A DNA stretch of 64,000 nt from Balanoglossus misakiensis (taxonomy: Eukaryota > Animalia > Hemichordata): the NCBI GenBank assembly GCA_040954595.2, contig CM082596.2, positions 4,732,181-4,796,180 of the forward strand. The letters run 5' to 3'. The notes under the pieces were generated by a model, which did no database searches, had not been told where the DNA came from, and saw nothing but the letters and a program-made list of their open reading frames with translations. Below, in pieces: positions 7,421 through 64,000 of the stretch (position 1 is the first letter of the stretch; every line of letters starts with the position of its first letter). The position numbers and the translations under genes are program-made.

Positions 7421-9105
7421 ATGATGAAGAGTATCATTGGATCAGTTTTTGTGGCTTTGGCCGTCCTCACTGGACACGGTAGGACCACACTTATTTTTAC
7501 ATCATCTTTTTTATCGGTTTCAGTAATTTAAGGGACATTAGCTGTAACTTTTACCTGTATTTCATGCATCATACTAAAATACTCAATACTCCATTTGTCA
7601 ACACAGCCTGTATGTGTGTAACAACCATTGTATGATGATTTTTATGTATTATTTTATTGTTGGGGCATTTATTTATTTATTTATTTTTCATTGACAGTGT
7701 TGGCCCAATGTCCACCAGACTATGTTCCCTACGACACTCACTGTTACCGAGTGATTCTAATTGGACACATATATAAAGATGCCGACGGGATTTGCCAGAA
7801 CAGCGCAACAGGTGCCCGACTGGCCTCCATTCACTCACAGGAAGAAAACGCATTTATACAGTCAATTCTGAACGACGATGCGTGGATTGGTTATGATGAC
7901 CTCGCACAGGTAAGACCCGGGTCGGGGTGGGGTAAGACTAAGACTGTCAGTTGTAGGCTATAAGGCTAGGTTTATTCAACCGACAGTTATGACAAACAAG
8001 GTCGTTGTCTCGCAGTTCCTGTAAAATTGCCAGTTTCTATCAATGCTAGTTTTATTTCACTGATTCAGTGATTGTCTATCAGTTCGAGCCGATTTCACAA
8101 CTCATTAATGAACAAAGAAGTCACACTTCAAAAACAGGAAATTCCAGAACGACACTTCTAGCAGCTGCATTTCCAATGTACTCAGTTACAGTTAAACAGC
8201 TCTGCAAAGCTCTGAGCATGTTGTCCCGCCCGTCCTCAATACAGAGTGACAGTGAGAATGATAAATCTTGGGAACATCGATAAAGTTGAATAGCGGTTGC
8301 ACGTGTTTAGATATCAGTCCACCACTGTTATCGCTGGGACGACCGTCTCGCGTGGCCGTTCCCCATGAACGCTCAACTCCCAGTCCTCTCACGTTCCGCT
8401 ACAGGGCTCTTTCCTCTTGGTACATTAATTAATAGGCCCTCATTAGTTTGCGAAGGTGGGGGTGGGGGGGGGGGGGGTGGATGTGCGAAGTGGGAGGGGG
8501 ATGTACATGAGAGAATCTAGGAGAATCAGCCGGGATTGATTCTGAATACCACAAGGAACGCCATCATCGGCAAAGAGGGCAAAAATAAACTGGGTCGGGT
8601 CACACCAAGATAGAATGAGCCTATAATGGCATATGTCAAATGCTACACTTTCAGGAAGGCACCTTTGCCTGGTCTGACGGTTCAGCTGGAGTTTATGAGA
8701 ACTGGTCTAATGGTCAACCTGATAATGGTGGTGTTAGTGGCAATGATCAAGACTGCGCGGAAATTACAGTTCAAGGTGAGTTGACGAGCAACAAAAAAAA
8801 TCAATTTCAGTTAGCTTAAACGTATATGATCACCAGTGCAATTTTAACTAGTGAACCATGGCAAATTCCAATATAGCCTGAAATTGCAAATTTTCAGTGA
8901 GTGGCACACAGACACACAAAGTTTACAACCACGTAATCACTTGACCCTGCATTTAACCAAGCATATGTTAATTAAAAGTTCTGTCTTAATATCACAGCTG
9001 TGCTTACATTGTTAAAATCTTTCATTTTCTGCAGGTGTTTGGACTGACGTAGAATGTGACACAACCCTGCACCAGTCTATATGCAAAGTTCCGATCGCTT
9101 TGTAG
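7421..9105 (+). CDS. Secreted single-domain C-type lectin (long-form CTLD, QPD motif), 153 aa
   Basis: Exons 7421-7478 (signal peptide MMKSIIGSVFVALAVLTGH), 7698-7909 (CPPDY..HCY..C..LASIHSQEEN..WIG), 8655-8775 (FAWSDGS..YENWSNGQPDN..DC) and 9035-9105 (WTDVEC..ICK..TAG). Total 462 nt, in frame, six Cys. Confidence 0.92.
8457..8500 (+). repeat. G-rich tract with G-quadruplex potential in lectin intron
   Basis: Long G runs seen directly. Confidence 0.7.
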
Positions 9106-19200: not shown

Positions 19201-22200
19201 GACTGTTTGGCAAGAATATTATTCTTTCATTTGTGGCATATGCTGCTGATATTAGAAATTATTGTTGAGGATTATACCGCGTAAGGTTCATCTGTTTGCA
19301 AATTTATTTTAGTTTTAATCGGGAAAGTACACATATCACACAGACATGGTTGAACGTTGGCAATCTTCTAAGTCTGCCAAGGTTGTTTAATGACAAAACA
19401 AAGATAAACCACATATGGACTCACTTACCCATGTTTTCCTCTAGTATGGTAAAATCTTGAAATTCTAAATCCGAGAGAAGGTTATCAGCAAAGTTGTCCA
19501 CAGTATGCATCAGCCGAAAACTCACGTCCGAGTTGTTCTGGAGATAAAACCACGAAAAAATGAAGCTAAATTTCTTTGATGCACACTAAAGGCTTTTAAA
19601 ACTTTAATAAAAGATACATTTTATCATAGCGAATAATCGACATCAGGGTGAATATATGTTCACTGCTTGATAATGGCTGCCTTTTGATAACCCCCGTAAA
19701 ACAACAACGGGCTTGTAAATTAAAGTTATAGCTTACAAGTCTTGAATACCTATCGGAAAGATATTGATGTCAAATGATACATACCGCGACCAGGACGTTC
19801 CAAGCATCAGACTTACTCGGGTGCACCAGCTCGTTGATGGTCTTCACAAAACTCTACAAGAGTGGAGAAGAGTTATCACCATCGCTCATGAACCAACACA
19901 CTGAATCTATTTAGTACAACTTGAAATTTGCATAGTCTACAATCAAAGCAATGATTAAAACTGATTGATTGGAAAAAATAATGGATACCAATTGTCTGAT
20001 GGTAACCATTTCCCACTTTCTGGTACTTACATGGGATGATTAAAAAATATCCAGATAAATATACTGAGCATCAAGGAAAGGTTTGGAATTCAGAAAACCC
20101 TTGTCTCTGATATTTTCAATAATTTTAAACTTGTTTACCTTCTGGAAAAAGATGGTGAGTATTTTCAATTTCTAATTTTTAAGATGAAACATTGGGGTGT
20201 TCATATAACTGAGAATGGACAGGTTCGAAATGTTCTAATTTTATGTGAATCAATAAGAGGAGTTGTACGGTACTTACAGTTCGGATAGCCTCCTTCTCCT
20301 CCAGTGTTGGCATGACGTCAGCATTCATGTATGAATGCAGTCCTGATATTTGATCCAGAATGTCCAGCGTCAGTGACAGTTCTTGTGACGTCATGTTCTG
20401 GTTGGCTGTTGTCAGCGACGCCAGTTCCTCTGTGTTCGTAGAGACGTCAGTAGGTGTAAGTGAGTCGCTTGCAAGCTGAAAAGGAACGTGCGGATTATAA
20501 GGTTGGAATGAAATAGGTGGCGTTTTCTGAAAGGAATTAGTGAAGGATAGTGCGTAAAAAAAGTGCAGAAACAACAGAGTTTGACAAGAAGAATCATTCA
20601 ATACAAGGGAAAATATCAAGGGAACTGCTCTTGCAATAATTACAAGTTCAAGGTATTATGTGCCTTTTCTGAAATCTGTCCCCAAGGGGTAATATACCTT
20701 AAAGGGGAAGCATGGAGAGAACTGCCCTTCCGACTATATATACACATCACACGTTTAATTAAACAACCCATTTGGCTCGCGACAAACAATCAATGTGTGT
20801 TTCTCTGTAACTTTGTAAAATCAAATACCGCAACTGTTTGTACACACTGTTGCAACCTTATGCAATTTCCAATCAACTTTACTTTGTTACCTCGATGTAA
20901 ATTTTCTCCAGTGACGTCATGTGCTCGTTCGCCACATCAATAATAGTTGATGACTGTGTTGACATCACAGTAGATATGGATGGCAAAGTTGTGACTGTAA
21001 ACAAAAAATACTGGCATTAAAGTATGCACATGATCACATCCTAAATCATCGCGTTCCGTTGATCAGAAGAAGTAAATCGGATTGCGGACAGATAAAAACA
21101 AGGGATTCATAATGCACTGGTATTTGATATAGTTTTTTCCAGATTGGGAAAATATTCAATATCACATGGAAATGTGTTTCTGGAGATCACAGCAACCGCT
21201 ATTTGTGATATCAAGATTTGAGAACAACCCTATTTTTTTAAATGTCACACTGGATATTATTTTTGTGTATATGTAACTAATATGCCAATTGTGCATGTTT
21301 CTCTTTCCCAACACGGCCGAAAATATTCTGATTTTTGGGTACAACCCAGAAATCAATTTTGTGAGGCCCTTTTGACGAGGCCCTTAGGGATATGTATGTG
21401 CCGATCGCGAGTATCACTTACCGATGACCGGCGGAATGCCATCTTGGTAGACAGCGAAGATGTCTAACTCGTCCAGCCCCACTTCCCAGATGGCCAGCTC
21501 GTCGTACTGAGCGACACAATTCTCCAACTCCTGGGTGTTTCCATTCAGATAGATGGTGTTGTCCACATTGCTGCCTATGACGTCATCAACTCCAGACGTT
21601 ACAGCGCCGACTTCTTGACCATTTACAAAGACAGTCAACGCTGTTGTTATGCAAGAGAATAGACATTTAGCAAAATATGAGAAAAAGTTAAAGACTGATT
21701 TTGAAGCGCTTTCTACCCTAATAATGAAGTTCAAAGATGGATGGTACAAAGTATGTTCATGTACCATCAAAAACCTTTACATTGGGGAAGCTTGTCTGCT
21801 AAATGTAAAATTGAGGTTTCACGCTCGCCTTCTCAAGTTGGTGATAACACCTTACCTCCTGATGCCGTTGCATTCCAAACGAAGCCTATGTGATTCCAGT
21901 AATCCGTTGACTGGACCGTTGATATGTCTGCGTCATAACTCCAATACTGCGCTCCGTTGTGGACGTAGAACTTCAAAAGGCCGCTCGCAGATCCCAGGTA
22001 TTTGATCTGAGCGAGATAAATACACCCTTTTCATAAGTTGAGCGCTGTCATGCAGCCATCAGGACTTTGAACTCAAAGCGAGGCCAATTGGGAAAGTTGA
22101 CCGATCTACTGTGTAAATATAGGTTAACATGTTTACCTGTTACACCTGGAACTATTATATAGACAGATACTTTATCAAAGAGTCCTAAAAAAATTAAGAG

Positions 22201-43690: not shown

Positions 43691-43746
43691 TTTATTAACA
43701 CCCCGTATATATACACTGTATAATATTATAAGCCCGAGGGTTTATT
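43691..43746 (-). terminator. Two candidate AATAAA poly(A) signals for the DUF6973-like gene
   Basis: Plus-strand TTTATT at 43691-43696 and 43741-43746, 300-360 nt past the stop at 44048. Confidence 0.5.
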
Positions 43747-44047: not shown

Positions 44048-45546
44048 TTATTTTTGTATCAAGGAAGCGTTGTACTTCTTATCTTTATCAAGAAAATCAA
44101 ATGAGAATATTTTGCTCCTGAGGGCTTCTTCTTCGCTGATAATTCGCTCTCTGCTGTAAGCAGGGTCCGGTTCGGTCTGCAACACTCCACCCTCAAAGGC
44201 CTCGCGGATCACATCCATGTCGTCCCTGTACACATTCTCGTGGTTTTCGGCCAACACTCGGCCCATCCACTTGTTGTACAGGTCCATCAGACTTTCGGCG
44301 AGCTCGTCTTCGGCCCGACCGGTCAGCTGGTGCGCGTCCCCGAAGTCCTTCGCCAGTACAGGGCCAAACTCTCGCGTCAGGCGGTACATCCAAAGGGCGT
44401 GGTAGACGGCAGTTTGCGCGTGCTTTCCGTTGCAGTCAGCTACAAGAAAATAAAATCGGGATGAAAAGTTGGTATAATTTTAATGCAAGCGCCTTTTAGT
44501 TTTAATAGACAAAGAAAAACCTACATGTTGACGAAAACCTTCACAAGACTTGACTAAGACAAAGTCATACAGATATAACTTATTTGAATGCAAAAAGGAT
44601 AGAGAGCTTGTTGCCCACGTACCAATGAGGAAATTAAGGAAAGTTCAAAATAGTTCACAAGTGATTTGATCTAAATAACAAAATTATTGTCAAGTGATAT
44701 CCTTAGCTGCATAACTGCTTATCATAAGTAACAGTCGGCTTATATCAGGAAAGCGCATTTTCTTTTTTGCCAGCTACAACTCAGTATATAGAGCTCACAA
44801 ATTCTTTCCCAAACTTTTAATTGCGTTTTATACGAATAGAATGTAATCTCCTTTTCTGTAAACACGACTGACATACATCCCTACACCTATTCACAGGTGT
44901 TTTGTAGGGCATATAAGAGATGGATAATAAAATTATGTTGATGAGCAAGATGGCGCGCGTGCATAGATACGCACTATTTGTATATGAATAACACTCACCT
45001 TGATACGTGATGGTATTCGCATCGATTTGACTTTGTTCGCCTACTTCAGCCACGCGTGTGGTTCGTACGGGGTGAAACAGGGATAGTGTGTCCTTCTTCA
45101 TTCCCCGAAAGTCGTAATTAAAGTGGTTGTACGCCTCGCTTTTTGTCAGTCCCGGTTTTGGTCTCTGAACTGAATGAAACAGAGATATTAGGTCTATGAA
45201 CTCAATCACCATAGATGCGCGCGCTCTGTATTGTTGTGTATATTTATCCTTGAAATAGGTCGATCGTAACTGTTTGATAAAAAAAGATTTCACACCGGCT
45301 TTGCTTCTATTGCAGTCTAGTTTACACCACACAATTGTACGCATGGTTGTGTCCGTCGACCTCCCATAAACAATTAATACACAGTAGCGTTGGTGTGGGA
45401 AATCGATCACGTACATGTACATTACACAGGTAAATAGAATTATGACATACCCCACTTAAAAAGCTAGACTTTCAGTTACATTTTGTAGTTGTGCAGATCG
45501 ACAAATAAAAAAAATATCACGTACCTGATTTTCGGATCCACGACAT
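44048..45546 (-). CDS. DUF6973 / minimal-Wnt (Lipocone superfamily)-like protein, 3 exons, 194 aa
   Basis: Exons 45525-45546 (MSWIRKS), 44999-45169 and 44048-44439, joined by canonical phase-1 GT-AG introns (585 nt, in frame). Core sequence: LFHPVRTT...QTAVYHALWMYRLTREFGPVLAKDFGDAHQ...ESLMDLYNKWMGRVLA...IREAFEGGVL. This follows the remembered bacterial pattern HP...DAFRHAxW...TxxFG..A..F.DAHE...MDLxNNxxGR...GxL. The gene structure is solid; the family call is by motif recognition only. Confidence 0.75.
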
Positions 45547-46712
45547 GTTTAGAGTTCCGAGACACGGCGAGGGAATATTTCTATATCACAGTAATATGCA
45601 CAGTACCAGTGTATGTTGCTAACACGGCCACAGAATCAACCGTACGACAAAACACTGTTGACAGTACACACACGACGACTATTGTGCGCGTGAGAAAAGC
45701 ATGAAAGCGGGCGGTCACCGTTCACTTTTGTCTGCAGGGCAAAGATTTAAAGAGTGGATCCAAGACCTTTCAACAGATTCAATGGGTATACGACCTCTGA
45801 AGAGACTCGATTTCTACGCCCATAGGCTGTCTTTGTCACGTGATTTCAGATATTATATCAATTACTGGAGATTAAGGATATTTGAGCCTTGTGAATAGTA
45901 ATGGTATAGTTGAACGGCGGAAAACTTAAACCGTTTCTGCGAACTAAACGAATAAAATGTGACAACAATAAATACAAGCGGCAGAACTACTGATACCAAT
46001 ATAAGGGCTTTCATTTAATAATGTTTCCTCGTTTCTTATAACTTTAAAAGATGAGATTGTCTTTGTTCATTCTAACAACAACAACAAAAACAACAACAAA
46101 TTTCTTGAATATAGTACTGTCAGCATGATGACGTAAGCTATCGAACTCTCAAAATAATTTACAGCTTAATATTTCAAAGAAGTGATAATGGTATTGAAAT
46201 GGCATGGGGATTCATCTTGTTGCTACGGACACACCCCTCTGGTGAACGTCGAAATATGCGTATGTAATCGCTGAGGGCGCCCCATTGTCAACAAAAAGGG
46301 GGTAAGAGCCATGTTGTTTGAATGCTTTGTTTTAGACTATGTATGAGTGGAAAATATTGCATCTTAGAATTACTCGTTATTCACTGGTAAATGAAAGCTC
46401 GCACACAGTACTTCACCAGTCATTTAGAACTTGCTCAGACATTTTACTTCTGAGAATATATGCAAATCTGACATGATTTCTGTCAGGTCACTTCAGTTCA
46501 AATCTTCTCCGTGTCAAATTTAAATCTTTTGAAATGTCAAATTACAAAACCTGAATTACATGTACTCCATGCAAAAGTAGTCTATATAAAGAAAGAAGAA
46601 CGAAAATAACTGAGGTAAGCTTTGTGCCAGTTCAATTCTATGTGCACACTGAGTTTTGACGGAAAGAAAACCTGTCCTTTTGCAGCATTTGGTTTACTTC
46701 ACGGAATCCATT

Positions 46713-49520
46713 TCAGTCAGCCTCCAGCAAGAATTTCGCCATCAACGAGAAATGATCCGAGGAGAGCCTCCCGTTCGGCAGCCCGCCCATCAGCGACGCC
46801 TGGCTGTCGGAAAACAGCGAGAGCCTGGCCAGCTGCTTCAGTTTTCCCTCCGGCCTCTGGGAGTGGTATCCCGACTGTCTGTGGGTCGCGTCTCGGGCGG
46901 CGTCGCGCACCGAGTAGAAGATGTAGTCCACGGTGCAGTTGGTGCGCTGGTGGTTGCTGGTGACCTCCTGCTGGTTGTCCGGCGTGCGGTGTTTGTAGAC
47001 CGATTTCAGGTGGTACGAGTGACCGATGGTGTTCTTGAAGCCGTATTTGTGTCCGTTCGAGGAGGGCACGTCCTCCCACTCGCCACTGTCGCTGTCAGCC
47101 GCGTCCTGCCCTCCTGGGAAAAACACGAACCAAAAACAACGTGAATTTAAACAAGGTGATACACGCAGCGGTTTTCAAGTTTTTGATGTGGACGGACATA
47201 CAGACATACATCCATCCATCCATCCACACATACATACAGACGCAACCGATCCCATAAGGTCCCATGGTACATACCAATGGGACCCAAAAACTCTCAGAAT
47301 GATTTCACTCTTTACATGCTGCACGCTGCAACTGGGTACAAATCAAGAGCAGTAGAGAACCACTGACCTCTGTCCCACTTTCCTCCCCTGGTGTCCACTG
47401 TGTTGACGTACTGGCACCTGTCGGTCACCCCCATCTTGGGACTCCACAGCGGCCGCAGCAGGTGACCCCAGTGGGGGCCGTCGAACTGTCCCGAGACGGC
47501 CGTCCGGTGCAGGTAGTCGTACTTGAGCTTGCCCTTGTTGATGAACTTGTAGAGCGGCGAGTACGGCTGGCTGTTCAGGTCGCCGCACAGGATCACCGGG
47601 TAGTACTTGGCGTCGCCGCCGCGCGCGACTTTCCGGCAGGCCATGTTGTCGATCTCCGCAAAGAGTATGCCCAGCTGCGCGAGCTTGACGTCGCCGCGTT
47701 TGGGGTTGAACAGCAGGTGAGTGGTGGCCACGCAGACGGCCTGATACCTCTTCTTCTTGCTCAGCGGTTGCAGGAGGACCACAGTGCCCACATTGTCTCT
47801 ATCCAGCGGGAAGACACCCGGCTTGTAATATTCCACCAATTTATGTTTAATCAGCCGGAAGAGAGAGTTCCTGTAAAATATAGCACAGCCGTCTTGTTTG
47901 TCCCCTGTGCGTTTCTTGTAGATGCCATCGTAACCTGAAGAGAAATGCACAAGTGGTTGAATAATTCTCAAGCAGTACATAAAAGGCCAGGTGTCAACCT
48001 GTCGGCAGGTATGGGTCCCATACACAGTTTAAGAATGTAATATTTCGGCATTTTTTCGCATTCATTTGTATACAGTTGGTGGCAGGCATTTGCTAGCTAA
48101 TTTTTCATTTCTGTTGTCTCTTTGACAGATATTTACATGACTAGTGTATATGTATGTACTTCTACTCACCCAGTATGGCTAACTGTGGCTGAAAGAAATT
48201 ATTGAAGGGATCTTCTTCAACTTCTTGAAGGCACATGATCTGAAAAACACAGAGAAAATGTTTCAACAAACATCACAATAATCAATTGCTTGGTGACATA
48301 CATTTAGATAAAATGGGAGTGCCACACCAAGGGCAGATAATCTGACAAAGAGTTTGCTCTGGAGGATGGTAGCGATACTCACATCTGGATTTAGATCTTT
48401 GATCTCCTTGAGTAACTTCTGCTTTCTGTAATTCCAGGCCAGCAGATCCAGCGGACAATGAGAGTACAGGTCCATGTTGGTGTCAAGAAGTCCCTGGGCA
48501 AGCAGGTTGTAGGACAAGACGCTGAACTCGAACCCACGCACGTGTCTCTTCTCTTTCTCCCTTCCCAGACCAGTCAGGATCCACTCTCTCTTGAACAAAT
48601 CAGCATTCTCTGTTGGTTGACCTGGACCTGAAAGAAATACAGCTTTAGTGTGTTGTGTGCATAGATGCATGTGTACATCTGTGTGCATATCTGTCTACAA
48701 TGTTGACAAGTGATATGAAACAAAATGACTGAAAATCATCAAATGTTAAAGCTAATGGCCAACAATTTCTCTTACCACCTGACTGCTCCCCATCATTGCT
48801 TTTAACATCCTGACTGACTGTTGTTGCATTTTGTCCATCATCCGACGTACACAAATCCATGGTGCACACATTGTAGTTATCTTCATTTGGCCTGGTGCTG
48901 CCAGACTGGTTGGATTTCCCTGATTTGCGTACTGCTAGTTTATTGTCTGTGGGTACTTTCGATGATGTAGAGGGTACGGCATCTTTGGAGCCTTTGACCG
49001 TGGGAGACCACCTGGGTTTGGAAGCGGTGGGGGTTGTGTCATCCGACTCTGAAATGTGCCGCGACCTCTTTCCACTCCTCTTGAGTTTCTCCAAAGCATC
49101 TGATGTCAGTCCTTGTGCGTGACATTGTATGCTTCCTGCGGGTTCTACAGGTGTACTACTGGAATAGTAGTTGGCACACGCAGGCTGGTGCGTGACGTTT
49201 CCGCACGTTTGGAAGTGTCCTGCTGACGTGCTGGGATTGGTTTGCGCCCACGGGCACGGCATGCGGTAGGCATAGCCGCCCCTTGCAGCGGTGGTTGCGT
49301 ACGTGCCAGCAGTGAGAGGCTGGCTGTATCTGTAGAGCGGGCCGCGCGGTCTGGCTGAATCGTTATTCATAGCAAACTCTGTGTACGCCTGGTTCCACAT
49401 TGATGTGAAACGCGGGGCGTTCCACGGCCAAGGTATTCGCTGGTTAGCACTCATGGCCTTTGCATGCCGACCTAGTCTTATGGCGAGAGTTCTATACCTT
49501 TCTAAACACCCTCTGTGCAT
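46713..49520 (-). CDS. ANGEL2: Protein angel homolog (ANGEL2-like EEP-fold 2',3'-cyclic phosphatase)
   Basis: Exons 48776-~49510 (low-complexity N-terminus), 48383-48627, 48170-48239, 47368-47934, 46713-47113. Motifs: FSVLSYNLLAQ, MCLQEV, KKRTGDKQDGCA, THLLFNPKRGDVKLAQ, CGDLNSQP, TVDYIFY, SSDHFSL. Start is uncertain: ATG at 49799 in an upstream exon, 49520 or 49454. Confidence 0.92.
47195..47240. repeat. (CATA/CATC)n microsatellite in Angel intron
   Basis: Seen directly. Confidence 0.75.
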
Positions 49521-50284: not shown

Positions 50285-50793
50285 GGTGGTGGTGGTGGTG
50301 GTGATGATGATGCATGGTGGTGATGATGATGACGAGGGGCTTGTTGCGATGCAATAATAACTTGTCCATGAAAATAAACCATTACAGTAAATAACCAAGT
50401 ATCACCATTATGCATTTCAGCATTGTACTGGTCCAGTTTAGCAAAGATGGTGGCGATACCAAGATAGCTGTAGTCCTTGGGCATGCAGTGAGACATGTGG
50501 ACATCCTGAATGGCGATGCCGAATCCCACCGGGACCAGCTGGACAAGCTGTTTGCAAGAGACGCCGGAACGAGCTACACCAAGAATGAACTCCAACAGCG
50601 GAAAGCCAGTCTCAAGGAGTGGCTTGAGAAACACAGGATACCAGTGACCGAGTCTGGAGAAGACGGGAGTCTGTTGTCCGTCTCCGAGGCACTATTCATT
50701 GAACCTCCATACACGGCGGACAGCTGCATCAGCACCAATGAAATCATACTTGGGCGTATACAGTCACTAATCAGGGCGAAGCCAGAGTCATGA
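49869..50793 (+). CDS. GEMIN6: Gem-associated protein 6 (SMN complex), 2 exons, 185 aa
   Basis: Exons 49869-50053 and 50421-50793. Motifs VYKQVKV..GWVHTVDPVSNSIVLVQF, GHAV, RKASLKEWLEKHRIPV and IEPPY..C.STNEIILGRIQ match Gemin6. Confidence 0.93.
50236..50332. repeat. Compound (GAT)n(GGT)n trinucleotide microsatellite in the GEMIN6 intron
   Basis: Seen directly. It is the source of the poly-His/Pro/Ser antisense ORFs. Confidence 0.95.
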
Positions 50794-53576: not shown

Positions 53577-56500
53577 TTAATGCGACGTTTTTTCGACTAA
53601 CTGGGTGGTGTCCTCCTCGTTGTCTTCCGTCGGGTTGTACGCGGGAGGGCCGTCTGGCGGGAGGGTCGGTTCCTTCACTTTCGGCAGGGGGTTGGTCATC
53701 GACGGTGGGGGCAGTTTTTCTGAAGCCGGTAACGGAATGTCCACCGCGACCTCCTCAGCTGCTCGGGCATTCCCGGAATTCAGAAGCCCGTTTTTGTCCG
53801 GGGCTGGCGATGCCGGAATGGTGGGGTCCTCGGGTGTTTGCAACGCCACGTCGTAAATCGGGTTGCTGAAGGCTGTCGAGTTCATGGTGTCTATCTGGAA
53901 TTCGCCTTGCAGAACAGGCTCCTGCAATTCAATGTTAATCATGCTTTATCAAATGTACCCACACGTGTACTTACATACAATACGTAGGAATGGGAATTAT
54001 GTTTATTTACATAGTGAAAAAAATTGCTGATAGTCGTCAAACAGCTGCTGTGGACAATTCACTTTTAAAAGCATGCATATCCTACAGCATTAGGTTTCAT
54101 ATATTCAGCGTCACTCAAATCCCATAAATAAATAAAATCTCCGAATTTGACAGCAGCCTGTTGGCACACTCACCCCATTAGCAGTGACATCACCTTCATC
54201 ACTCAGATAGGAAGGCGTTCCTAGATCCACATTCATCCCACTACGGAAAGACACACTCTGGTCCGTGCTGTACTTGGCTCTAAGAAAAGAATTCCAAGAA
54301 GAATAGACATGATTATTACACCGCATGCACTACAGACAAGTGGCCACTATACAGAGGCAGCCACTAACGCAGGTTAGACTGTATACAGCTGAAACTAATA
54401 AGACATCACACTCACCTATGTGTTCTTCTGTAGTAAATGAGAATAGCCAACACAATAGCTACAAGTATGACTACAAGTACTGTAAACACTGCTATCATCA
54501 CTGTGATATCTGCAACAAAACGCAAATATTACTTTCTTTACTTCTGCAAAACAAGATACATTTGATACGCTTGACAGAAGTAATCAACAATTCTCAAAAG
54601 CTGAACCTTGTGATGATATTATCCCCATTTCAGTACATACCTTTTCGAGTACTGCTTGCTGTTCTTGCTTGCACCCCACATACACTACCAAGCCAGCCCT
54701 CTGGACACCTGTGGAGAAGAATTCACCGAAATTACAAGAGTGAGAATCTCATGACCAACCTGTTTCACAATGGTATGACCTACAGGATAATGGCTCATTC
54801 CATTTTATGGGCTGAAGGGGGTGGTCGGATCACTCACCTGCATAATATAGTGTCATTGACGGACTTCTCACAGATGCCACCATTAAGGCACGGACATTTG
54901 ATCGGGTCCTCTCGTGGCTCTTCTTTGGCTGTGAACACAAATCACGGGATACAATTATTGAACCATCCAAGCACAGTAACACCATCAAATTACAAAGTTA
55001 AAACTGTTGCATACAAGTCTAGAAAGGTTGACATCACATTTGATCATCAAGATTCGATTAATTTTACAAACGCTATGAAGGTGTACTCTTTTGTGCAAAT
55101 TTCAGGTCGGAAGGAATTTAAGTTATTCTACCTCCTTTGCATAGTTTTTGACTGCCTTCTTCAAACTCATCACCATTGGGACAAGCACATCTGTAGCTGT
55201 TCGGCACCAGTAGGCACAGATGGCTGCACATACCAGCTTTGCATCTTGTTCTCTCTGCAGAAAAAAAGGCGAAAATGTACACAATCTGTAAAAGTGAAAG
55301 TATTGTCATTCCTTTGAATGTTGATTTTTGGGATTCATACACGCATGGTCAATGCGGACCTGAATACACTCCTTGCAGGCTTAGTTACAGGTAACTGACA
55401 AAGTAGACGGGTCTGATGTCTCCACACACACTGGGACTTACCCTGAGGGTATCTCATGTACTGTACAGCTTTGAGCGACACCGGTAGTGTGAGGTCAGCC
55501 ATGAGTGTCGTTGGAATACCCCTGCCCAGCTTGTCGAACTGGAGGATGGCCGTGTCGTTGGTCCAGTAGAGGTGACCTTCAAAGACTTCTAAGTAGAATG
55601 GATGCATGAGAAAATCTGCAGGGAAAAAATGAAGTGGACATGACAAATATAAAATGCGTTACTCGATCAGATGTTCTAGCTAGATTTCAGAAGAAAGTTA
55701 TAGGTGCAATTCAAATCATTATGATGCATGGGAAAAAAAACTGACATGCTGAAAGACGTACCACCTGCTTTCAGTATCTTCCTGTTGGAGCCATCAAAGT
55801 TCATAGTTTCAATGATGTTTTCTTTCCTGTCGCACCAGTATATTCTGTCTCCGTTGGCAAAGTCAATGGTGATACCCGTGGGCTCGACTATTCTGTCGGA
55901 CACAAGTGTGGTTTTATTCTCGCCATTCATCCAGGCTGCTTCTATTTTCGGGAAAGCTCCATTGTCCACCCAGTACATCCATCTGTGACAGAAAGTCATA
56001 AATCAAGTACTGGTACACAGTAGTCTCAAGGGCAACACCCACAGTAATAATACGATACACACATGGGCCACAAGAACTGACTGTTATCGACATCACATTT
56101 GCCTAGAATACATGTTGCCTTACCCTCGCCGTGGATTGACAGCAATGGCCCCGGGTCGACCGAGGTTTGTGAGCAGGGTCTTCCTGTACCGGCCATCCAA
56201 CAGAGAAACTTCAATACTGGGTCTCACCACTTCATCCCCAGCATCTGTCCAGTACAGCAACCTGAAGAAGAAACAAGACAACTTGATGCAGTGTGGAACA
56301 TCCATTTACATAGAGATATGACAACCTTCAACACACATGCAAATGCTGTGCTCACAGGCTTTTCGTGCAATTCTATTACCATGCCACTTCTGGCATATTC
56401 TGCCAGCACTTACGCTTGGCACTTAGCATTTCAAAATCCCCACTGTCAAACAATGGCACAATAGAATTTTGATTTAACCACCTCACCCTTTCACCACAAT

Positions 56501-59500
56501 GGTTTGATCCAAACCCACTGTTTTTCTATAGTAAAATCAGACTTCTACCGGTACAGTGGAAAATGAGTTGAGAGGTTTCACTGATATTTTTGTTGGTGAA
56601 TTAACATCATCCAGGATTGACAACCTACCTGCCGACCCAATCTACAGCAATGCCTTCAGGTCGTATCACATCTGGCAGATCCAAATTTTGCGAAAAGGCA
56701 ATCTGATCTATGTTATCAGGTATGTAGGATCTCTTGAGTGTTCTCTGTGATGTATCTGTCCAATATGCAATTGCTGGAGCAAAAAAAAAGTACAAAACAA
56801 TTATTGTCGAAAAGTTCACTTTATGGATTACAGCTGTCCCGACACAAAATTGGTGTCTTCAGCCAAAAATCAAAATTGACAAAGAACTTGTACGAACTGT
56901 AGGACTTCGTAGCTCTTTGAAATTTGTATAATGAGTGTGAAAAACTCACTGGCCGTAATGGCAGGTCAGTACAATATTGACATAGCACTGACTAGTCACA
57001 AAAATAACATACTTTGGTTCAGTTCATCCACAAAATAATCCAGAGCCCAGGTTCGTCTCTCCCCAACCACAAGGTTGCCGTAAATGTTGCTGTTTTCAAA
57101 GTATCGCCTGATTTCTGATCCATCTGTGTACAGAAGGGACTTGGGCTCACCTGCAAACAAAGACAAATGTTTTTCATTATATCCGGTGAAATACACAGCA
57201 TACGAGTCTAGTGTGTGAGTGGGAAAGTTTTTTCTGTATGATGCATTGTTATTTGCCTTGATAAAAATCGAATACATGACTGACTTACCCAGCGGTCGGC
57301 AGTGCGAACCATCACCAATTTCATCCACGTAGCCGCTGGCACATTTGCACGAGAACGAACCCTTAGTATTGGTACAAACTTGCATACACATTGGATCCAG
57401 ACACTCATTTACATCTGTGAAATATAACAACATGATGAAATTTAATACTATCATGTTAGTTACAAGGGCAACGAGACTTCTTCATAATGTGCATATGCTG
57501 GCTATAGTAATCAAAACAGCGACCATAAGATAGATCAATGGTTACATGCAAATACATGTCGCCTGGTACATGATAGGATAGGATATTGGCTATACGGTTT
57601 GAATATAGGCTACATAGACTTGGGACAGCTAGCACAGGACTGATGAGATATAGGAGATCTCTGTGTCACTCACCCTCACACTCTCTCTTATTGGATGGTG
57701 AGGGTCGATAGCCAATGCCACAGCTGCAGAGATAGCCATCGGCCAAGTCATGGCACTCGCGTTGACAGCCACCATTGTTCAAGGCACACTCATTGATGGT
57801 GCCATCGGATTTATCTGAAAATGAGGAAAAGAAAACACATGAATGGAACAATCGATATATCTACTGTACTCGACACACGTAGCAGAGAATGCCGTATGAT
57901 ACACCATTTAACAATCCCTCGGTCATCTCGCTGATACCAATAATCGAAAGCAGTTGGCATCTGCTTTGAACAACATGTAACAAAACAGACACCACTTCTC
58001 TAACATTTGCTGTCAAACTAAAATGACAAATTCTCAACAAAAAGCCCAAGACAGAATATCACTAACTATTCTGACAATCTACACATCATAATTCACTCAC
58101 GGCATCCAAGCTCATCAGTGGCATCCCCGCAATCGTCGAAAGTATCACACACATCGGAAATCGGCACACAGTGTTTATTTGCACACTTGTACTCATCTGC
58201 TGTACACTCTCGGATGTGCTGACCTGAAATTTCAATAAATTACCAATTTTAACATTAGTAATCGACAGATGCTTATTCAAATCACCTTCTGACATTCAAA
58301 TCAGGTCACGCATCGCTTCTCTTGATTATAATGGCCAACTTATTTTTTTTTCCAATATAGATGCTTATACAATTACCATTAAATTGCAATTTACTTACAT
58401 AATTCATGAGTGTTTTCATCGCTAGCATCGCCACAGTTGTCAACATTGTCACAGAGTCGATATCGTGGAATGCATTTGTTGTTATTGCAGCGGAATCTAG
58501 ATTCCTCCGGACAGTCTATGGTTTCTGTGGTGGGAAGACGAACACAAGAATCCATTTTTGAAAGCACCTTAACATGAATCTTTTCACAAAAACAACGTTC
58601 TTATTTTGTCAATTACTCTGCCACAACACTAGGTACTACAGTATACATTTCTCACCAAACCAACAACTCCATTCTTTGCAAATCAATCATCTTACCACAG
58701 ACACTCTGAGTTTCATCGGAGCCATCACCACAATCATTGTCACCATCACATCGCCATGCCAACAGGATGCAGACAGAGTTGTCACACTGGAACTTGTTGG
58801 CAGGGCAGTACCGTCCTCCTGGATATCTTGTAGCTGTGGAAACAAACAAACAAAGAGATTACTTATATTTCTCTTAATGAAAGATGTTCTATAGACTTTA
58901 AATTTAATAACATTGTAGAGATTTTGACATTTCAATCACAAATCCTCATCAAACCTTGTCACACTGACAAACCCGGGTGAATCCACTATTTCTAGGGGGT
59001 ACACCATACTTACGGCATCCACTTTCATCCGAAGCATCTTCTCTACAATCCTTGTCACCATCACAGCGATAAGAATTAAGAATGCAGTGACCACTATTAC
59101 ACTGGAATTTATCAGGCGGGCATGTCAGTGTATCTAAGAAACAATGAAACAAAAATACAATCTTAAGTTTTGCATTTTTTTGCTACCAATTCGTAGTGAC
59201 CAGAATAGGAAATAAAACAGTCTGAACAGGGCAAAAGGAAAAGCAAAATTGTTGAGTAACATGTGTTAGAAACTTACGGCACTCCAGTTCATCAGACCCA
59301 TCCCCGCAATCATCGTCATGGTCACAAATCCACCGACTTGGAATACAGGCACCATTATAGCATGTGAATTCACTCTCACTGCAAGGGCGTCTTGCTGAAA
59401 TTAAAATAGGACAGCACGTAGCAGCAATGTGAAAAGCATTAGGTTTAATTAGGTTTTATTCAAACCAAATCCGGATCTCAAAATTATGCGAAAAGGCCCA

Positions 59501-62500
59501 ATGCAGGGTAATTTATTTGACTGGCATCTGGACCAATCAGAAATGATATTCTATTTCATTCCATCAGCATCTGAGCCAATCAGAAGTAGTGTTCTATCAC
59601 ACTTACAGCAGCCGTATTCATCAGAGCCATCTCCACAATCATCATCCCCATCACACTGCCACCTGTTGGGAATGCAGTGATGGTTGGTGCAACGGAATTC
59701 TCCATCATTGCAGTCACGCGATTCTGACAGAAGACAAGAACACGAAAAAAGAGTTTCACAAATTTTGGAATAAATGCAAAAAGTAAAAACTCCACTGAAA
59801 CCATGAAGATGTCACAAATATTTTGTCCATGAACTCATAGATAGATATTGACAGAGGTTTGCTATTAAAACTTGATCACTGATAACTGGTCTCTTCTGGT
59901 TATAGTAACTATACATTTGCTCATTTACCGCATACTCCAGCTTCTTCATCACTGTTGTCACGGCAATCGTTATTCCCGTCACACACCGCCCATTCCGGCA
60001 CACAGCGATAGTTGGATACGCAACTGAACCATGATGGCTGGCAGGGCCTTCGTTCTGGCAAATGACGAATCAAGAAATCAGCATCTCAAAATAAACGTAA
60101 CAGTTGCAAGTGTGCTTTCCATGATTTCTGATTGGCAATTTCAAAGGGTCAGGCCAGGCCAGGACCAAAGCCAATACTCACTGCAAACATCAGCTATCTC
60201 ATCCGACCCATCTCCACAGTCGTTGTCCCAGTCGCAGTACCAGGCGTCCGGAATACAGTTTCCGTTATCACATGTGAATGTTCCAGGCCCACACGTGCGG
60301 CCACCTGCAAGAAAGGGAGATCAAATTTGTCAGTCTATTGATAAAATTGGTAACTAACAGACTTTGGAGTCCATCCTATGCATTTTGGAGGCTCACATTC
60401 ATTTCATTTCATTTCACATCCACATATTACCCAAAATCTTTACTCAGGAAAAAGCCTGCATTTAAAAACCAAATCTAGATGTCCACAGGCGAGACTTACG
60501 ACAGAAGGTTTCCTCTTCATCTGAGTTATCCCCACAATCGTTGTCGCCATCACACTCAAAACTTTTAGCGATGCAGCGGTGATTGGCACAGCGGAACTGA
60601 GTGCGGCCACAGTGGCGAAGGTCTGTAAGAACAATCATGTTATCCTGTCATTAAAATGCTGTGGCATATGATACACGTTCATGTGTTTGTTCCACAAATG
60701 GGATACCATCACACACTCAACTAATTATAAGAAAAGTAATGGTCCTGACTTTTTTCCAGTCACATTTAATACCGTGCCTCGCACATAAAATGTATATCCA
60801 TCCATACATCAATGTCTACAGTATACTCTGTCACTGTCAGACAGACAATGAAGTGCTGGGAAGACCAGAAAGAAGACCCTACCACAGTTTATCTCATCTG
60901 TGTTGTCGCCGCAGTCATCCTCGCCATCGCAGATCCATTCCGGCCTCGTGCAGTTGAAGTTGTCGCACTGGAATAGGCCGGGACTGCAGACTCTCAGAGC
61001 TGCAAGTGAATTGAATAGTCAGTCAGAAGAGTTTGAAATTCCATCACGTTTGTCGACCTGTATACAATAATCACACCAACAAGATGAGCCAATTGTTACA
61101 TCCATATACTACATTTCAGGCCACTCACTCGTGACACACGGCACAGACGTTGACTGGAATGCACTGGTCTGATACATACTTCATTTGGTTATAATTATAG
61201 TAATTTTCTACATAGATTGATGTTTCCAGTATCAACTTACGGCAACTCGCCGGCTCATCAGAACCATCCTGGCAGTCCGCCTCTCCGTCACATTTCCACA
61301 GCAACGGAATGCACTTGCTGTCATCAGCACACCTGTACTGACTGCTGCCGCAGTCGGCCATGCACGTTCTGCTATCATCCATCAACAAGAAGTCGTCGGG
61401 GCAGGCACAGCTGAACGTCGCCCCTCCGGGGGAGATGAGACACAGATGGGAACAGCCACCGTTGTTGGTTCCACAGGGGTTAGCCACTGGAGAGAAGAGC
61501 ATTTTGAGTAGATCAACTCTCAGTACATTTGAGAATATATAGCATCTGAGGATTTCTATTGGCTGAATGCTCTAACTTTTTGATCACATGAGCGCTGAGC
61601 ACCAATCAGAATTGACCTACTACAGATACCCATCCTAACCACTTCCTTTCAACTTACTTTCTGGCTGTCTCATTGGATGATACACATGGACATCCATGGG
61701 CCTGTGTATGGTTGTCTGCAGGACCTGTCTGTCTTCTCCTGTGAATTTATCCGCTTTGTAGATGGTCTTGTTGTTCCAGTCCGACCAGTACATGTAGTTT
61801 TCGAACACACTGATGGCAAACGGATGGCCAATGTCTGTGCTGGTGACTTCGTGGCGGTTGTTGCCGTCCAGATCAGCAAACCTGAAAGATGAAGGATTCA
61901 AAATTCATCTTTGTTAGGTCTAGCTACCAACCAGACTGGGCAGATGAAATGCGTGTGTTTGTTTATACACACAAAGGAGAAGTTGACTACTTACGCTATG
62001 TAGTCAAAATGTGCATCAGCCCAGTAGATCCTATCAGTGGTGTAATCGATCGTCATGCCATTTGGCCACCCCATCTTGTCATCTTGAATGACTACACTTC
62101 GGTTCGTACCGTCCATTCCTATACGTCCAATGTGTGCATAACTGAGACTCCAGTCAGTCCAATAGAGATACCTGAAAGTAGATAGATAGTAGATAATGAT
62201 AACAATGTTGCTATTTTTAATACTAAAAATGCCTTTTTTGTTCTGCTTCTGATGATAAAATGCTTGGGAACAGTCAATCCTCTATGAGAGAGACACAAAG
62301 ATGTTTTTTCCAAAGCTGTTATGACCATCATACAGATGATGCAATCTGTGAAGAATTTCACGCCAGCAAAATTCTGTATTGTATGGTACAGTTCACAAAC
62401 AAAATAAGGTGCCCTGAGAAGGTGAAATGCATGATCTCTTATTAAATGAACTCACCCTTTCTGTGGATACACTGCCAACGCTCGTGGTTCTGAGAGTCCA

Positions 62501-64000
62501 GACGACACCAGGACTTTACGACTGGATCCGTCCAACTCTGCAACCTCTATCATGTCACTGGTTCTGTCCGCCCAGTAGATTTTCCTGAAATAGCCAAAAG
62601 GGATAAACTGATCAAGTGTTGTCACACAGTGACATATTCTGTACTTTTGTTCTTTTCTAGGCCACTGTCATTTAATTGTTACATATTACATATTTAATTT
62701 GTTTAGTTTTATAGACTGACTGTCATATATAATTAGAGTTTTTGAGTTTTGCAAACAGACTGAGTAACCAGCATTTTGAATATTTTGCTTTCAAATATAT
62801 TTTCAACTAGAACTCTCTGTACCTTCCCACCCAGTCGATAGCAATGCCTTCGCCATCGGGAATATAATACTGGACAACCGTCTCCAATCCGGTGCCGTTG
62901 AGGAAAACCCTCTGGATTACATGTTTCGGAACATCTGTGAAGTACAGGCGCTCCTCCTTGATGTCAAAGTCCAGCGCCACCACATTAGTCAGACCGTCCA
63001 GGATGAGGTCGTAGTTTCTCAAATCAAGCGATAACTTGCGGATGTAGTAACGGTTGCTGAAGATGAGATAGGGCCTGACATCTGAAACAAAGTGACATTG
63101 CGCATGAAATTCGATCGGGGTGTATGTTACGTAATTTAGCACATCATGTGGAGGCCAAAAAAAACAAACCACATATCATATCATTATCATATAATTATAA
63201 TAGAACTAAGAAGTAAAAGGTTAAGATTCCATCTTCCTTGAGCAATTTAGTGGAGAAAAACCATATTCATACTGAGATCTTAGGTGAACATATCTTCCTA
63301 TAGAGGTCGAAAGTGAATGGTTAGTCTTCATAATCAGACAAAGCTGCACACTTCATTGACTTCAAAAGAACTCACCACTTTGGGCTTTACATGTTCTTCC
63401 ATCTGGTTCCTTCTGGTATCCCTCCACACATTTACAGATGTATGACCCTTGGGTGTTTTCGCACTCCTGGCTACACACACTTGGTGTTTCCATACATTCA
63501 TTGATGTCTTCAGAGAAATAAAAGAAAATACCCAGTCTGTCAAAAGACAGTTGTTTCTGAAATTTCTACAAAAAACATTCGACTAAGAAGTTCCCCTGTA
63601 TATTATGACATAACTGTTGACTTGGACCATTATCATATTTCTAATATTTTTCAGCGTTCGATGATTGCCTGTCACTACACATTAGGAAAACCTGTTCTGT
63701 AGTTTAACACAATTCAATAATGAAAAAATATTTGCTCTCCATCATGCACTCTTTATGAGAATTTCACTCAGAGAGATAAGTAACAATATTGGTATTGCCA
63801 GTTTTTGGAAACACAGTTCCTATATATACATGTATACATGTACATACCCCTGCAGGCCCTTCCATCTGGCATCAGTGCGTACCCACCACGACACTCGCAG
63901 TAGAAACTGGTCGCCGTGTTCACGCACTCATGCTCACACTGATTGGAAACAACATCTGCACACTCATCAATACCACAATGTCTTTCATCTGATGAATCCA
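53577..64000 (-). CDS. LRP2: LRP2/megalin, 3' portion (5' end lies beyond the window)
   Basis: Exons include 63848-64000, 63376-63507, 62823-63081, 62456-62584, 61995-62171, 61658-61881 (EGF + YWTD propeller); 61241-61486, 60883-60999, 60500-60622, 60182-60304, 59929-60054, 59607-59723, 59278-59394, 59014-59133, 58696-58833, 58399-58524, 58101-58223 (11 LDLa repeats, as in megalin cluster IV); 57674-57814, 57289-57414, 57013-57150, 56629-56773, 56124-56261, 55762-55982, 55442-55615, 55132-55254, 54838-54928, 54641-54708; TM 54416-54509; tail 54174-54279 and 53577-53921. Megalin-like tail motifs: [26 protein letters not shown]. Confidence 0.93.
56486..56546 (-). repeat. Short interspersed repeat, copy 3 (inverted, LRP2 intron)
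   Basis: Its reverse complement agaagtctgattttactatagaaaaacagtgggtttggatcaaaccattgtggtgaaaggg aligns to 50814-50873. Confidence 0.65.

What the first reader, a model, noticed from the sequence alone, without database searches (positions are those of the whole stretch)
44048..45546. Intron-containing animal gene for a bacterial-type minimal-Wnt / DUF6973 (Lipocone) protein
Seen: a clean 3-exon gene (phase-1 GT-AG introns, poly(A) signals) that the ORF track splits into pieces. It encodes 194 aa with QTAVYHALW-x4-TREFG-x3-A-x2-FGDAHQ-x13-MDLYNKWMGR. Known, from memory: bacterial DUF6973 proteins have DAFRHAxW..FG..AHE..MDLxNNxxGR. That helical core is homologous to metazoan Wnt (ETAFVxAI ... 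MNLHNNEAGR) and is placed in the Lipocone superfamily of predicted lipid head-group-modifying enzymes and conflict effectors. This protein lacks the signal peptide and Cys-rich fingers of animal Wnts, so it is not a canonical Wnt. Inference: a horizontally acquired, intron-gaining, probably cytosolic Wnt-core protein among ordinary animal genes, perhaps an immune or membrane-lipid effector. I recall sporadic eukaryotic min-Wnt reports, possibly including an acorn worm, so novelty needs checking.
Basis: partly seen in the sequence, partly recalled or inferred. Interest (0 to 1): 0.88.

Follow-up and report, generated by a model that had tools for sequence, protein, structure and literature searches.

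The report
Signal-less bacterial Wnt-core gene, acorn worm
This is an intact three-exon gene, likely from an acorn worm, for a small protein with the core fold of Wnt that likely came from bacteria. Unlike the published secreted versions, it has no export signal and has lost several conserved pocket residues, so it likely works inside the cell as a binding protein rather than an enzyme or toxin.

Summary
In detail: three exons, two phase-1 GT-AG introns, 194 aa. The protein is DUF6973/Min-Wnt. It passes the Pfam cut-off. Its predicted fold best matches the bacterial effector BteO, then WNT8A.

Orthologs exist in Ptychodera (72%), Glandiceps (61%) and Saccoglossus (51%); all begin MSWI with no signal peptide. 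Transfer of Min-Wnt from bacteria to Saccoglossus is already published (eLife 2025, PMC12419801), described there as secreted and catalytically active.

Three things are added here:
(1) This gene belongs to a signal-less clade (100/98) within one acorn-worm clade (97/96) among bacterial sequences.
(2) The pocket is eroded. The near-invariant Glu102 (108 of 108 non-animal hits) is Gln, and D74, R77 and N121 are also lost. Two of the six residues essential for BteO toxicity are gone.
(3) Secreted paralogs, mostly degenerate, are fused to PGRP, pesticin, Tae4 amidase, trypsin or lipase.

Best reading: a cytosolic, probably non-catalytic ligand binder with an antibacterial-immunity role (0.45). 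It is a new variant of a known kind. Expression was not tested.

The parts
45525..45546 (-). Coding exon 1 (Met1-Ser7), start context AAACATG, ends in a phase-1 donor
   Evidence: all three orthologs begin MSWI
45170..45524 (-). Intron 1, 355 nt, GT-AG, phase 1
44999..45169 (-). Coding exon 2 (residues 8-64): N-terminal arm and helix H1 of the Lipocone core
   Evidence: helix 41-64 in the ortholog model
44440..44998 (-). Intron 2, 559 nt, GT-AG, phase 1
44048..44439 (-). Coding exon 3 (residues 65-194, TAA): helices H2-H5 plus an orthogroup-specific C-terminal tail; Pfam DUF6973 match
44390..44413 (-). H2 motif TAVYHALW: family D74 and R77 lost, H78 kept
44327..44338 (-). H3 motif DAHQ: D99 and H101 kept, near-invariant E102 is Gln (codon CAG)
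44258..44296 (-). H4 motif, residues 113-125: E113, D117, N120, G124 and R125 kept; R114 is Ser, N121 is Lys
43691..43746 (-). Two AATAAA hexamers (43746, 43696), possible poly(A) signals; weak evidence

Best explanation
This is an intact, spliceable gene, likely of an acorn worm, for a signal-less Min-Wnt (DUF6973, Lipocone) protein of likely bacterial origin whose pocket has lost several conserved residues, so it likely acts inside the cell as a non-catalytic binder, probably in antibacterial defence. Shown: the gene structure, family membership, the predicted fold, the missing signal peptide and pro-piece, the pocket substitutions, and orthologs in three acorn-worm genera. Inferred, in order: (1) one transfer from bacteria into an enteropneust ancestor, then gene duplication; (2) a split into a secreted branch (signal peptide, acidic pro-piece, furin site, Cys pair) and this signal-less branch; (3) loss of D74 and R77 in the whole orthogroup, then of E102, R114 and N121 in this species, while the scaffold stayed conserved; (4) the cone-shaped pocket still holds a ligand, most likely a bacterial envelope molecule or lipid-linked intermediate, or a protein loop as BteO does, which makes the protein an intracellular sensor or buffer rather than a toxin.
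For: Family: Pfam DUF6973 34.7 bits against a cut-off of 27, E 1.5e-8. The family profile hits BteO (E 4e-10) and Wnt-5a and Wnt-7a (1e-4 to 8e-4). Fold: the ortholog model (pLDDT 87) matches BteO Z 12.4, WNT8A Z 9.2 and WntD Z 5.9, with the next row at 5.5. The window's exon-3 model matches BteO Z 9.1 and WNT8A Z 7.9, next row 5.9. Cytosolic: N-terminal hydropathy maximum is 0.08-0.59 in the 6 signal-less proteins and 2.4-3.6 in 11 of the 12 other paralogs. Origin: the 17 animal-type rows form one clade (97/96), the signal-less rows 100/98 and this orthogroup 100/97. Every eukaryote named among the hits is an acorn worm. Pocket: among 108 non-animal phmmer rows, E102 is found in 108, D74 in 100, R77 in 97 and N121 in 104. 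The window protein keeps 4 of the 6 positions whose alanine mutants abolish BteO toxicity and OmpA binding (PMC12541434; numbering mapped); five secreted paralogs keep 6 of 6. Changes private to this species fall on family-conserved polar columns (6 of 14, against 3 of 65 elsewhere; Fisher p 0.0007, or 0.019 at the strictest threshold). Immune context: P. flava paralogs carry the domain fused to PGRP amidase, Tae4 amidase or trypsin; a Glandiceps paralog is fused to a lipase; an unnamed one to pesticin plus PGRP. The paper describes a precedent: an inactive Lipocone (Met-TelC) fused to an amidase in human PGLYRP2.
Against: No ligand, localisation or expression data exist for this protein. H78, D99, D117, N120 and G124 are kept, and the three orthologs keep E102, so the orthogroup may be catalytic. 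I could not see the paper's Figure 2, so I cannot say whether D99 or E102 is its 'H3 glutamate'. A VanZ-2 row of the paper's table reads DEFHQ, so Gln at this place may be tolerated in an active Lipocone (my motif alignment, untested). 11 of 108 non-animal rows also keep only 3-4 of the 6 positions. The immune role rests on secreted paralogs, not on this branch. A conserved, apparently single-copy orthogroup at 51-73% identity looks more like housekeeping than an arms race. The neighbours are ordinary genes. Support for one animal clade fell to 47 in a 31-row quick tree, and the AU test (p 0.43) cannot say whether the signal-less branch is nested in, or sister to, the secreted one, so loss of the signal peptide is not shown. 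Two of the six 'polar' changes are not pocket losses: Y101H returns to the family consensus and D130N lies outside the motifs.
Confidence: 0.45

Rival explanations
1. It is an active cytosolic Lipocone enzyme with changed specificity, acting on head groups of host or bacterial lipids.
For: H78, D99, D117, N120 and G124 are kept and the orthologs keep E102. The paper predicts this chemistry for the superfamily and notes that residue identities vary between families. A VanZ-2 row has Gln at a similar motif place. Non-random change at pocket columns could reflect re-tuning.
Against: E102 is found in 108 of 108 and R77 in 97 of 108 non-animal rows; the equivalents are essential in BteO. The only characterised family member found here, BteO, was reported as non-enzymatic, though lipid II was not mentioned in that paper.
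Confidence: 0.25
2. It is a domesticated protein with a non-immune housekeeping role (a scaffold or lipid chaperone), its bacterial function gone.
For: The orthogroup has 70 of 177 columns invariant in four species, including the N-terminal arm. One copy per species was found. It sits among housekeeping-type genes, and its GC3 of 0.62 is inside the neighbours' range of 0.56-0.86.
Against: Paralog fusions point to antibacterial use of the domain in this lineage. The pocket changed in this species while the scaffold did not.
Confidence: 0.15
3. The copy in this species is under relaxed selection and on its way to decay.
For: More private changes than P. flava with Saccoglossus as outgroup (18 vs 6, p 0.023).
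Against: Not significant with Glandiceps as outgroup (19 vs 13, p 0.38). The frame and splice sites are intact, and the changes are concentrated rather than scattered.
Confidence: 0.1
4. The protein is secreted through an unrecognised upstream exon: a hydrophobic 50-aa ORF at 46014-45862 could splice in frame to the start.
For: Only 2 of 398 ATG ORFs in the window are as hydrophobic. A phase-2 donor at 45865 and a phase-2 acceptor at 45581 would join in frame.
Against: The donor is weak (-1.0, against 6.1 and 8.0 for the true donors) and the acceptor tract is poor (0.53 pyrimidine). There is no furin site or acidic pro-piece. All three orthologs start at the same Met.
Confidence: 0.04
5. It is a stripped-down canonical animal Wnt, or bacterial contamination of the assembly.
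For: It shares the Wnt core fold.
Against: Pfam Wnt is not matched at E up to 10. Identity is 33-35% to non-animal proteins over about 140 columns against 15-21% to WNT8A. Introns, animal neighbours and orthologs on chromosome-scale contigs exclude contamination. No animal Wnt was in my trees.
Confidence: 0.01

Closest known systems
Min-Wnt family, SAW clade of the Lipocone superfamily (Burroughs, Nicastro, Aravind, eLife 2025, PMC12419801); Pfam DUF6973/PF22322
   Same: Five-helix core, H2 His, H4 Asp-x2-Asn-x3-Gly-Arg, stand-alone domain; transfer to Saccoglossus is reported there.
   Different: The paper calls the eukaryotic versions secreted, catalytically active and primarily stand-alone. 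This orthogroup has no signal peptide and an eroded pocket, and several paralogs are fusions. Its Saccoglossus ortholog was not found in the paper's readable Min-Wnt table; Figure 5-source data 2 could not be read.
Acorn-worm orthologs: P. flava XP_070571024, G. talaboti XP_077991867, S. kowalevskii 'HemiSP-like protein 416' (A0A1L7H7H3)
   Same: 51-73% identity, same MSWI start, D74 and R77 lost.
   Different: They keep E102, R114 and N121 and have Tyr at 101. All are uncharacterised in the records seen.
BteO, Bacteroides fragilis T6SS effector (PDB 9UU0; PMC12541434)
   Same: Best sequence-profile and fold match among solved structures; same pocket motifs.
   Different: BteO is a periplasm-acting antibacterial toxin that binds the OmpA C-terminal domain. 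The window protein lacks the equivalents of R143 and E168 and has no export signal.
Metazoan Wnt
   Same: Core fold (WNT8A Z 9.2 and 7.9) and a degraded ancestral pocket.
   Different: No signal peptide, no Cys-rich fingers (1 Cys), no insert between H2 and H3 for the lipidated serine; no Pfam Wnt match.
Met-TelC / PGLYRP2 and serum amyloid A
   Same: Bacterial Lipocones recruited by animals for immunity; Met-TelC is mostly inactive and amidase-fused, and SAA is reported to bind OmpA.
   Different: Different Lipocone families, and both are secreted.

Membership tests
Min-Wnt / DUF6973 | Match to the Pfam profile above the curated cut-off | tested here: met
   34.7 bits against 27 with exon 3 alone; orthologs 38.5-49.5 bits
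Min-Wnt / DUF6973 | Five-helix Wnt core without metazoan inserts | tested here: met
   Ortholog model helices 41-64, 70-89, 91-105, 111-129, 138-147; BteO Z 12.4, WNT8A Z 9.2; window exon 3 Z 9.1 and 7.9. Z values are moderate for helical proteins but the top two rows are the expected relatives.
Min-Wnt / DUF6973 | H2 His, H4 Asp, downstream polar residue and Gly | tested here: met
   H78, D117, N120 and G124 are present
Catalytically intact Min-Wnt | Full family pocket motif (D-A-F-R-H, A-H-E, D-L-x-N-N) | tested here: not met
   T74, Y77, Q102 and K121, against D 100, R 97, E 108 and N 104 of 108 non-animal rows
Catalytically intact Min-Wnt | Lipid head-group cleavage or exchange activity | not testable with these tools
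   Predicted only for this family in PMC12419801; needs an assay
Secreted eukaryotic Min-Wnt (as published) | Signal peptide | tested here: not met
   Hydropathy maximum 0.22 in residues 1-45, against 2.4-3.6 in 11 of 12 other paralogs. A simple window test, not SignalP. A weak alternative upstream exon is not excluded.
Metazoan Wnt | Signal peptide, Cys-rich hairpins, lipidation loop between H2 and H3 | tested here: not met
   1 Cys and no hydrophobic N-terminus; H2 and H3 directly joined; Pfam Wnt not matched
Horizontally acquired gene | Animal sequences form a clade among bacterial relatives and are absent from other animals | tested here: inconclusive
   One clade at 97/96 in 60 rows and 94 in 182 rows, but 47 in 31 rows. 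The tree is unrooted, the donor is unresolved, most non-animal rows are unnamed, and no Wnt, rotifer or fungal rows were included. It agrees with the published claim.
Expressed spliced gene | Junction-spanning RNA reads | not testable with these tools
   No run was listed

The most novel reading that the evidence does not exclude
Acorn worms have replayed the origin of Wnt a second time. A bacterial Wnt-core toxin was captured once and split into secreted active forms, degenerate targeting modules fused to cell-wall-lytic enzymes, and an ancient cytosolic branch (this gene) that dropped catalysis to become an intracellular receptor for bacterial envelope ligands. That would be a new class of animal pattern-recognition protein and a living intermediate between bacterial toxin and inactive Wnt.
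Probability: 0.2. Interest if true: 0.8.

Novelty: new variant of a known kind. Interest (0 to 1): 0.5.

Why it matters
Wnt is thought to descend from a bacterial toxin that lost its active site. This acorn-worm family holds intact, partly eroded and fully degenerate versions of the same core side by side, with and without export signals. That makes the step from enzyme or toxin to ligand binder open to direct comparison. It also qualifies the published picture, in which animal Min-Wnts are secreted, active and mostly stand-alone. Matching the family to BteO gives it a solved structure and a mutational map, and suggests that BteO's essential groove is the predicted Lipocone active site.

Tried and rejected
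No whole genome is held for this window, so paralog count and synteny in this species were not tested; within the window there is no second copy. No RNA holder was listed; this is not evidence on expression. Foldseek against PDB gave no match at E <= 0.001 (BteO rank 1, E 0.15). tblastn of the ortholog against phage records gave no match. The first bacterial-genome scan failed because the alignment was too diverse; it was rerun with a closer alignment, whose patterns select for intact motifs, so motif counts were redone on phmmer rows only. The AU test on a secreted-only clade was uninformative (p 0.43). Literature: 'DUF6973' gave 0 papers; hemichordate + PGRP + immune + Ptychodera flava gave 0; the 'hemiSP' search was swamped by 'hemisphere', and the term was not found in the supplements of PMC4729200, so the source of that name is unknown. 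Earlier scan notes held nothing. No complex prediction was run. dN/dS could not be computed without ortholog DNA. The full window protein was not folded; the 72%-identical P. flava ortholog and exon 3 stood in. Contamination and degenerate canonical Wnt were rejected (see rivals).

Full report
OBSERVATION. Three minus-strand exons (45546-45525, 45169-44999, 44439-44048), with GT-AG phase-1 introns of 355 and 559 nt, give an open 585-nt frame of 194 aa. The donors score 6.1 and 8.0 on a simple matrix, above the 99th percentile (3.6) of 453 local GT sites. The spliced protein aligns without gaps to a 194-aa Ptychodera flava protein, 140 of 194 identical and spread over all three exons, and at 113 of 186 to a Glandiceps talaboti protein. 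A Saccoglossus kowalevskii ortholog, 'HemiSP-like protein 416', is 51% identical. All four begin MSWI. The window is therefore likely an acorn worm. The two AATAAA hexamers are weak evidence. No RNA run was listed, so splicing is supported by homology only.

SURROUNDINGS. Of 48 ORFs scanned, 12 matched Pfam at E <= 0.01. They show an exonuclease/endonuclease/phosphatase gene ending at 46713 just upstream on the same strand (ANGEL-like, my recall), Gemin6, an LDL-receptor-related gene, a phosphagen kinase and a C-type lectin. These are ordinary animal genes. GC3 of the gene (0.62) is within their range (0.56-0.86). There is no second copy in the window, and no whole genome was available.

IDENTITY. 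Exon 3 alone passes the Pfam DUF6973 cut-off (34.7 vs 27 bits) and does not match Pfam Wnt. The ESM Atlas agrees: 28 of 30 feature hits for the ortholog are DUF6973 clusters. A 97-sequence family profile hits BteO (9UU0, E 4e-10), Wnt-5a (1.3e-4) and Wnt-7a (8e-4) among solved structures. The AlphaFold model of the P. flava ortholog (pLDDT 87) matches BteO Z 12.4 (130 aligned, rmsd 3.9), WNT8A Z 9.2 and WntD Z 5.9, with the next row at 5.5. The model of the window's exon 3 gives BteO 9.1 and WNT8A 7.9, next row 5.9. Foldseek alone was not significant.

RELATIVES. A full HMMER search found 250 representatives at E <= 0.001, of which 150 were listed. I looked up names for 20 of the top ones and got more. 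Every named eukaryote is an acorn worm; most other rows are unnamed metagenome proteins. The best named bacterial loci are Alphaproteobacteria, from a scan seeded with a 14-sequence alignment.

TREES. I used 182 of 232 sequences (43 too short, 7 duplicates; the frameshifted record P0004 was left out). FastTree groups 17 animal-type rows at 94. IQ-TREE on a 60-row subset gives that clade 97/96, the six signal-less proteins 100/98 and this orthogroup 100/97 (the bootstrap had not fully settled). A 31-row quick tree supports the animal clade at only 47, and an AU test (p 0.43) cannot tell whether the signal-less branch is nested among secreted paralogs. The trees are unrooted and contain no animal Wnt, rotifer or fungal sequence. 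One transfer into an enteropneust ancestor is likely; the donor and the direction of signal-peptide change are not shown.

TWO BRANCHES. Most other paralogs have a signal peptide, a pro-piece, a furin-like site and a Cys pair before the domain: 11 of 12 have a hydrophobic N-terminus, and P0008 lacks one, perhaps as a truncated model. The signal-less proteins begin where the mature domain of those begins. One caveat: a hydrophobic 50-aa ORF at 46014-45862 could be spliced in frame to the start, but only through weak sites. Several secreted-type paralogs are fusions: to PGRP amidase (P0106 and P0159, P. flava), Tae4 amidase (P0066, P. flava), trypsin (P0095, P. flava), lipase (P0009, Glandiceps), and pesticin plus PGRP (P0077, unnamed). 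Five of these six keep only 1-3 of the six key positions.

POCKET. Among 108 non-animal phmmer rows: D74 100, R77 97, H78 108, D99 101, E102 108, D117 107, N120 107, N121 104. The window protein has T74, Y77, Q102 and K121 (also S114 for Arg) and keeps H78, D99, H101, D117, N120 and G124. In BteO, alanine at R143, H144, H167, E168, D187 or D191 abolishes toxicity and weakens OmpA binding (PMC12541434). By the alignment these are window positions 77, 78, 101, 102, 113 and 117. The window protein keeps 4 of 6, its orthologs 3-4, and five secreted paralogs 6 of 6; 97 of 108 non-animal rows keep 5-6. Changes private to this species sit at family-conserved polar columns (6 of 14 vs 3 of 65, p 0.0007; 4 of 11 vs 5 of 68, p 0.019 at the strictest threshold), whereas P. 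flava and Glandiceps have none there. One of the six is a return to the family consensus. A faster overall rate is seen with one outgroup (p 0.023) and not the other (p 0.38).

MECHANISM. I commit to a cytosolic, non-catalytic binder, probably in antibacterial defence (0.45). The fold and the substitutions are shown; binding, the ligand and the immune role are inferred from BteO, from the fused paralogs, and from the published parallel of inactive Met-TelC in PGLYRP2. Against this: His, both Asp, Asn and Gly remain, the orthologs keep Glu102, and a VanZ-2 row shows Gln at a similar motif place. An altered enzyme (0.25), a non-immune housekeeping role (0.15) and relaxed decay (0.10) remain open.

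WHAT IS KNOWN. PMC12419801 (I saw the abstract, passages, sections 5, 7, 33 and 42, and searches of its supplements; not the figures; file 3 was unreadable) states that secreted, catalytically active Min-Wnts were transferred to fungi, rotifers and Saccoglossus and expanded there. Its Min-Wnt table holds a secreted Saccoglossus paralog and a sequence resembling the second signal-less group, but my motif and accession searches did not find this orthogroup. The main text has no hit for pesticin, Tae4 or trypsin, and PGRP appears only in the references. The unread file may list some of these. PMC12541434 (passages, and parts 2-3 of 7) does not mention Wnt, DUF6973, Lipocone or lipid II. PMC4729200: search listing and a supplement search only. 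PMC12445918: listing only. 'DUF6973' gave 0 papers in the searchable library, which lacks most subscription journals.

VERDICT. The gene is real and correctly identified, and the transfer to acorn worms is already in print. The signal-less, pocket-eroded orthogroup and the fused paralogs appear undescribed in what I could read. New variant of a known kind; interest 0.5.

Noticed in passing
PDB 9UU0: BteO, published as a non-enzymatic effector without recognised homologs among known cell-wall hydrolases, matches the Min-Wnt/DUF6973 profile, and its six essential residues are the family's pocket motifs. The paper does not mention Wnt or lipid II, so a lipid-II-type activity may be untested.
   Followed up: partly
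proteins P0066, P0077, P0095, P0106, P0159, P0009: Secreted acorn-worm-clade proteins fuse a mostly degenerate Min-Wnt domain to Tae4 amidase, pesticin plus PGRP, trypsin, PGRP or lipase; the PGRP fusion parallels human PGLYRP2. The Tae4 and pesticin domains may be further bacterial acquisitions.
   Followed up: partly
window 46014-45862 (-): A 50-aa ATG ORF with a signal-peptide-like hydrophobic start (2 of 398 ORFs are as hydrophobic), between the upstream gene and this one; only weak splice sites link it to the gene.
   Followed up: partly
protein P0004 (XP_002739942): The Saccoglossus RefSeq model goes out of frame after the MDL motif, while P0158 from the same species is intact; probably an assembly or model error.
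   Followed up: partly
proteins P0005, P0006: A second signal-less group (Glandiceps, Ptychodera), sister to this orthogroup, has Asn in place of the H4 Asp and keeps only 2-3 of the 6 key positions.
   Followed up: partly
window 46713-49520 (-), 50395-50793 (+), 55679-63175 (-), 58562-58894 (+), 4414-4713 (+), 7622-7963 (+), 21414-21776 (-): Neighbours by Pfam: an EEP-family nuclease/phosphatase, Gemin6, an LDL-receptor-related gene, a weak PIG-X match on the opposite strand inside that span, a phosphagen kinase, a C-type lectin and a weak laminin G3 match.
   Followed up: no
window 45850-45560 (-): Likely promoter region: raised CpG at 45700-45501 (o/e 1.44), a TCACGTGA palindrome at about 45842 and a TATA-like TTTAAAT at about 45751 (read by eye).
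   Followed up: no
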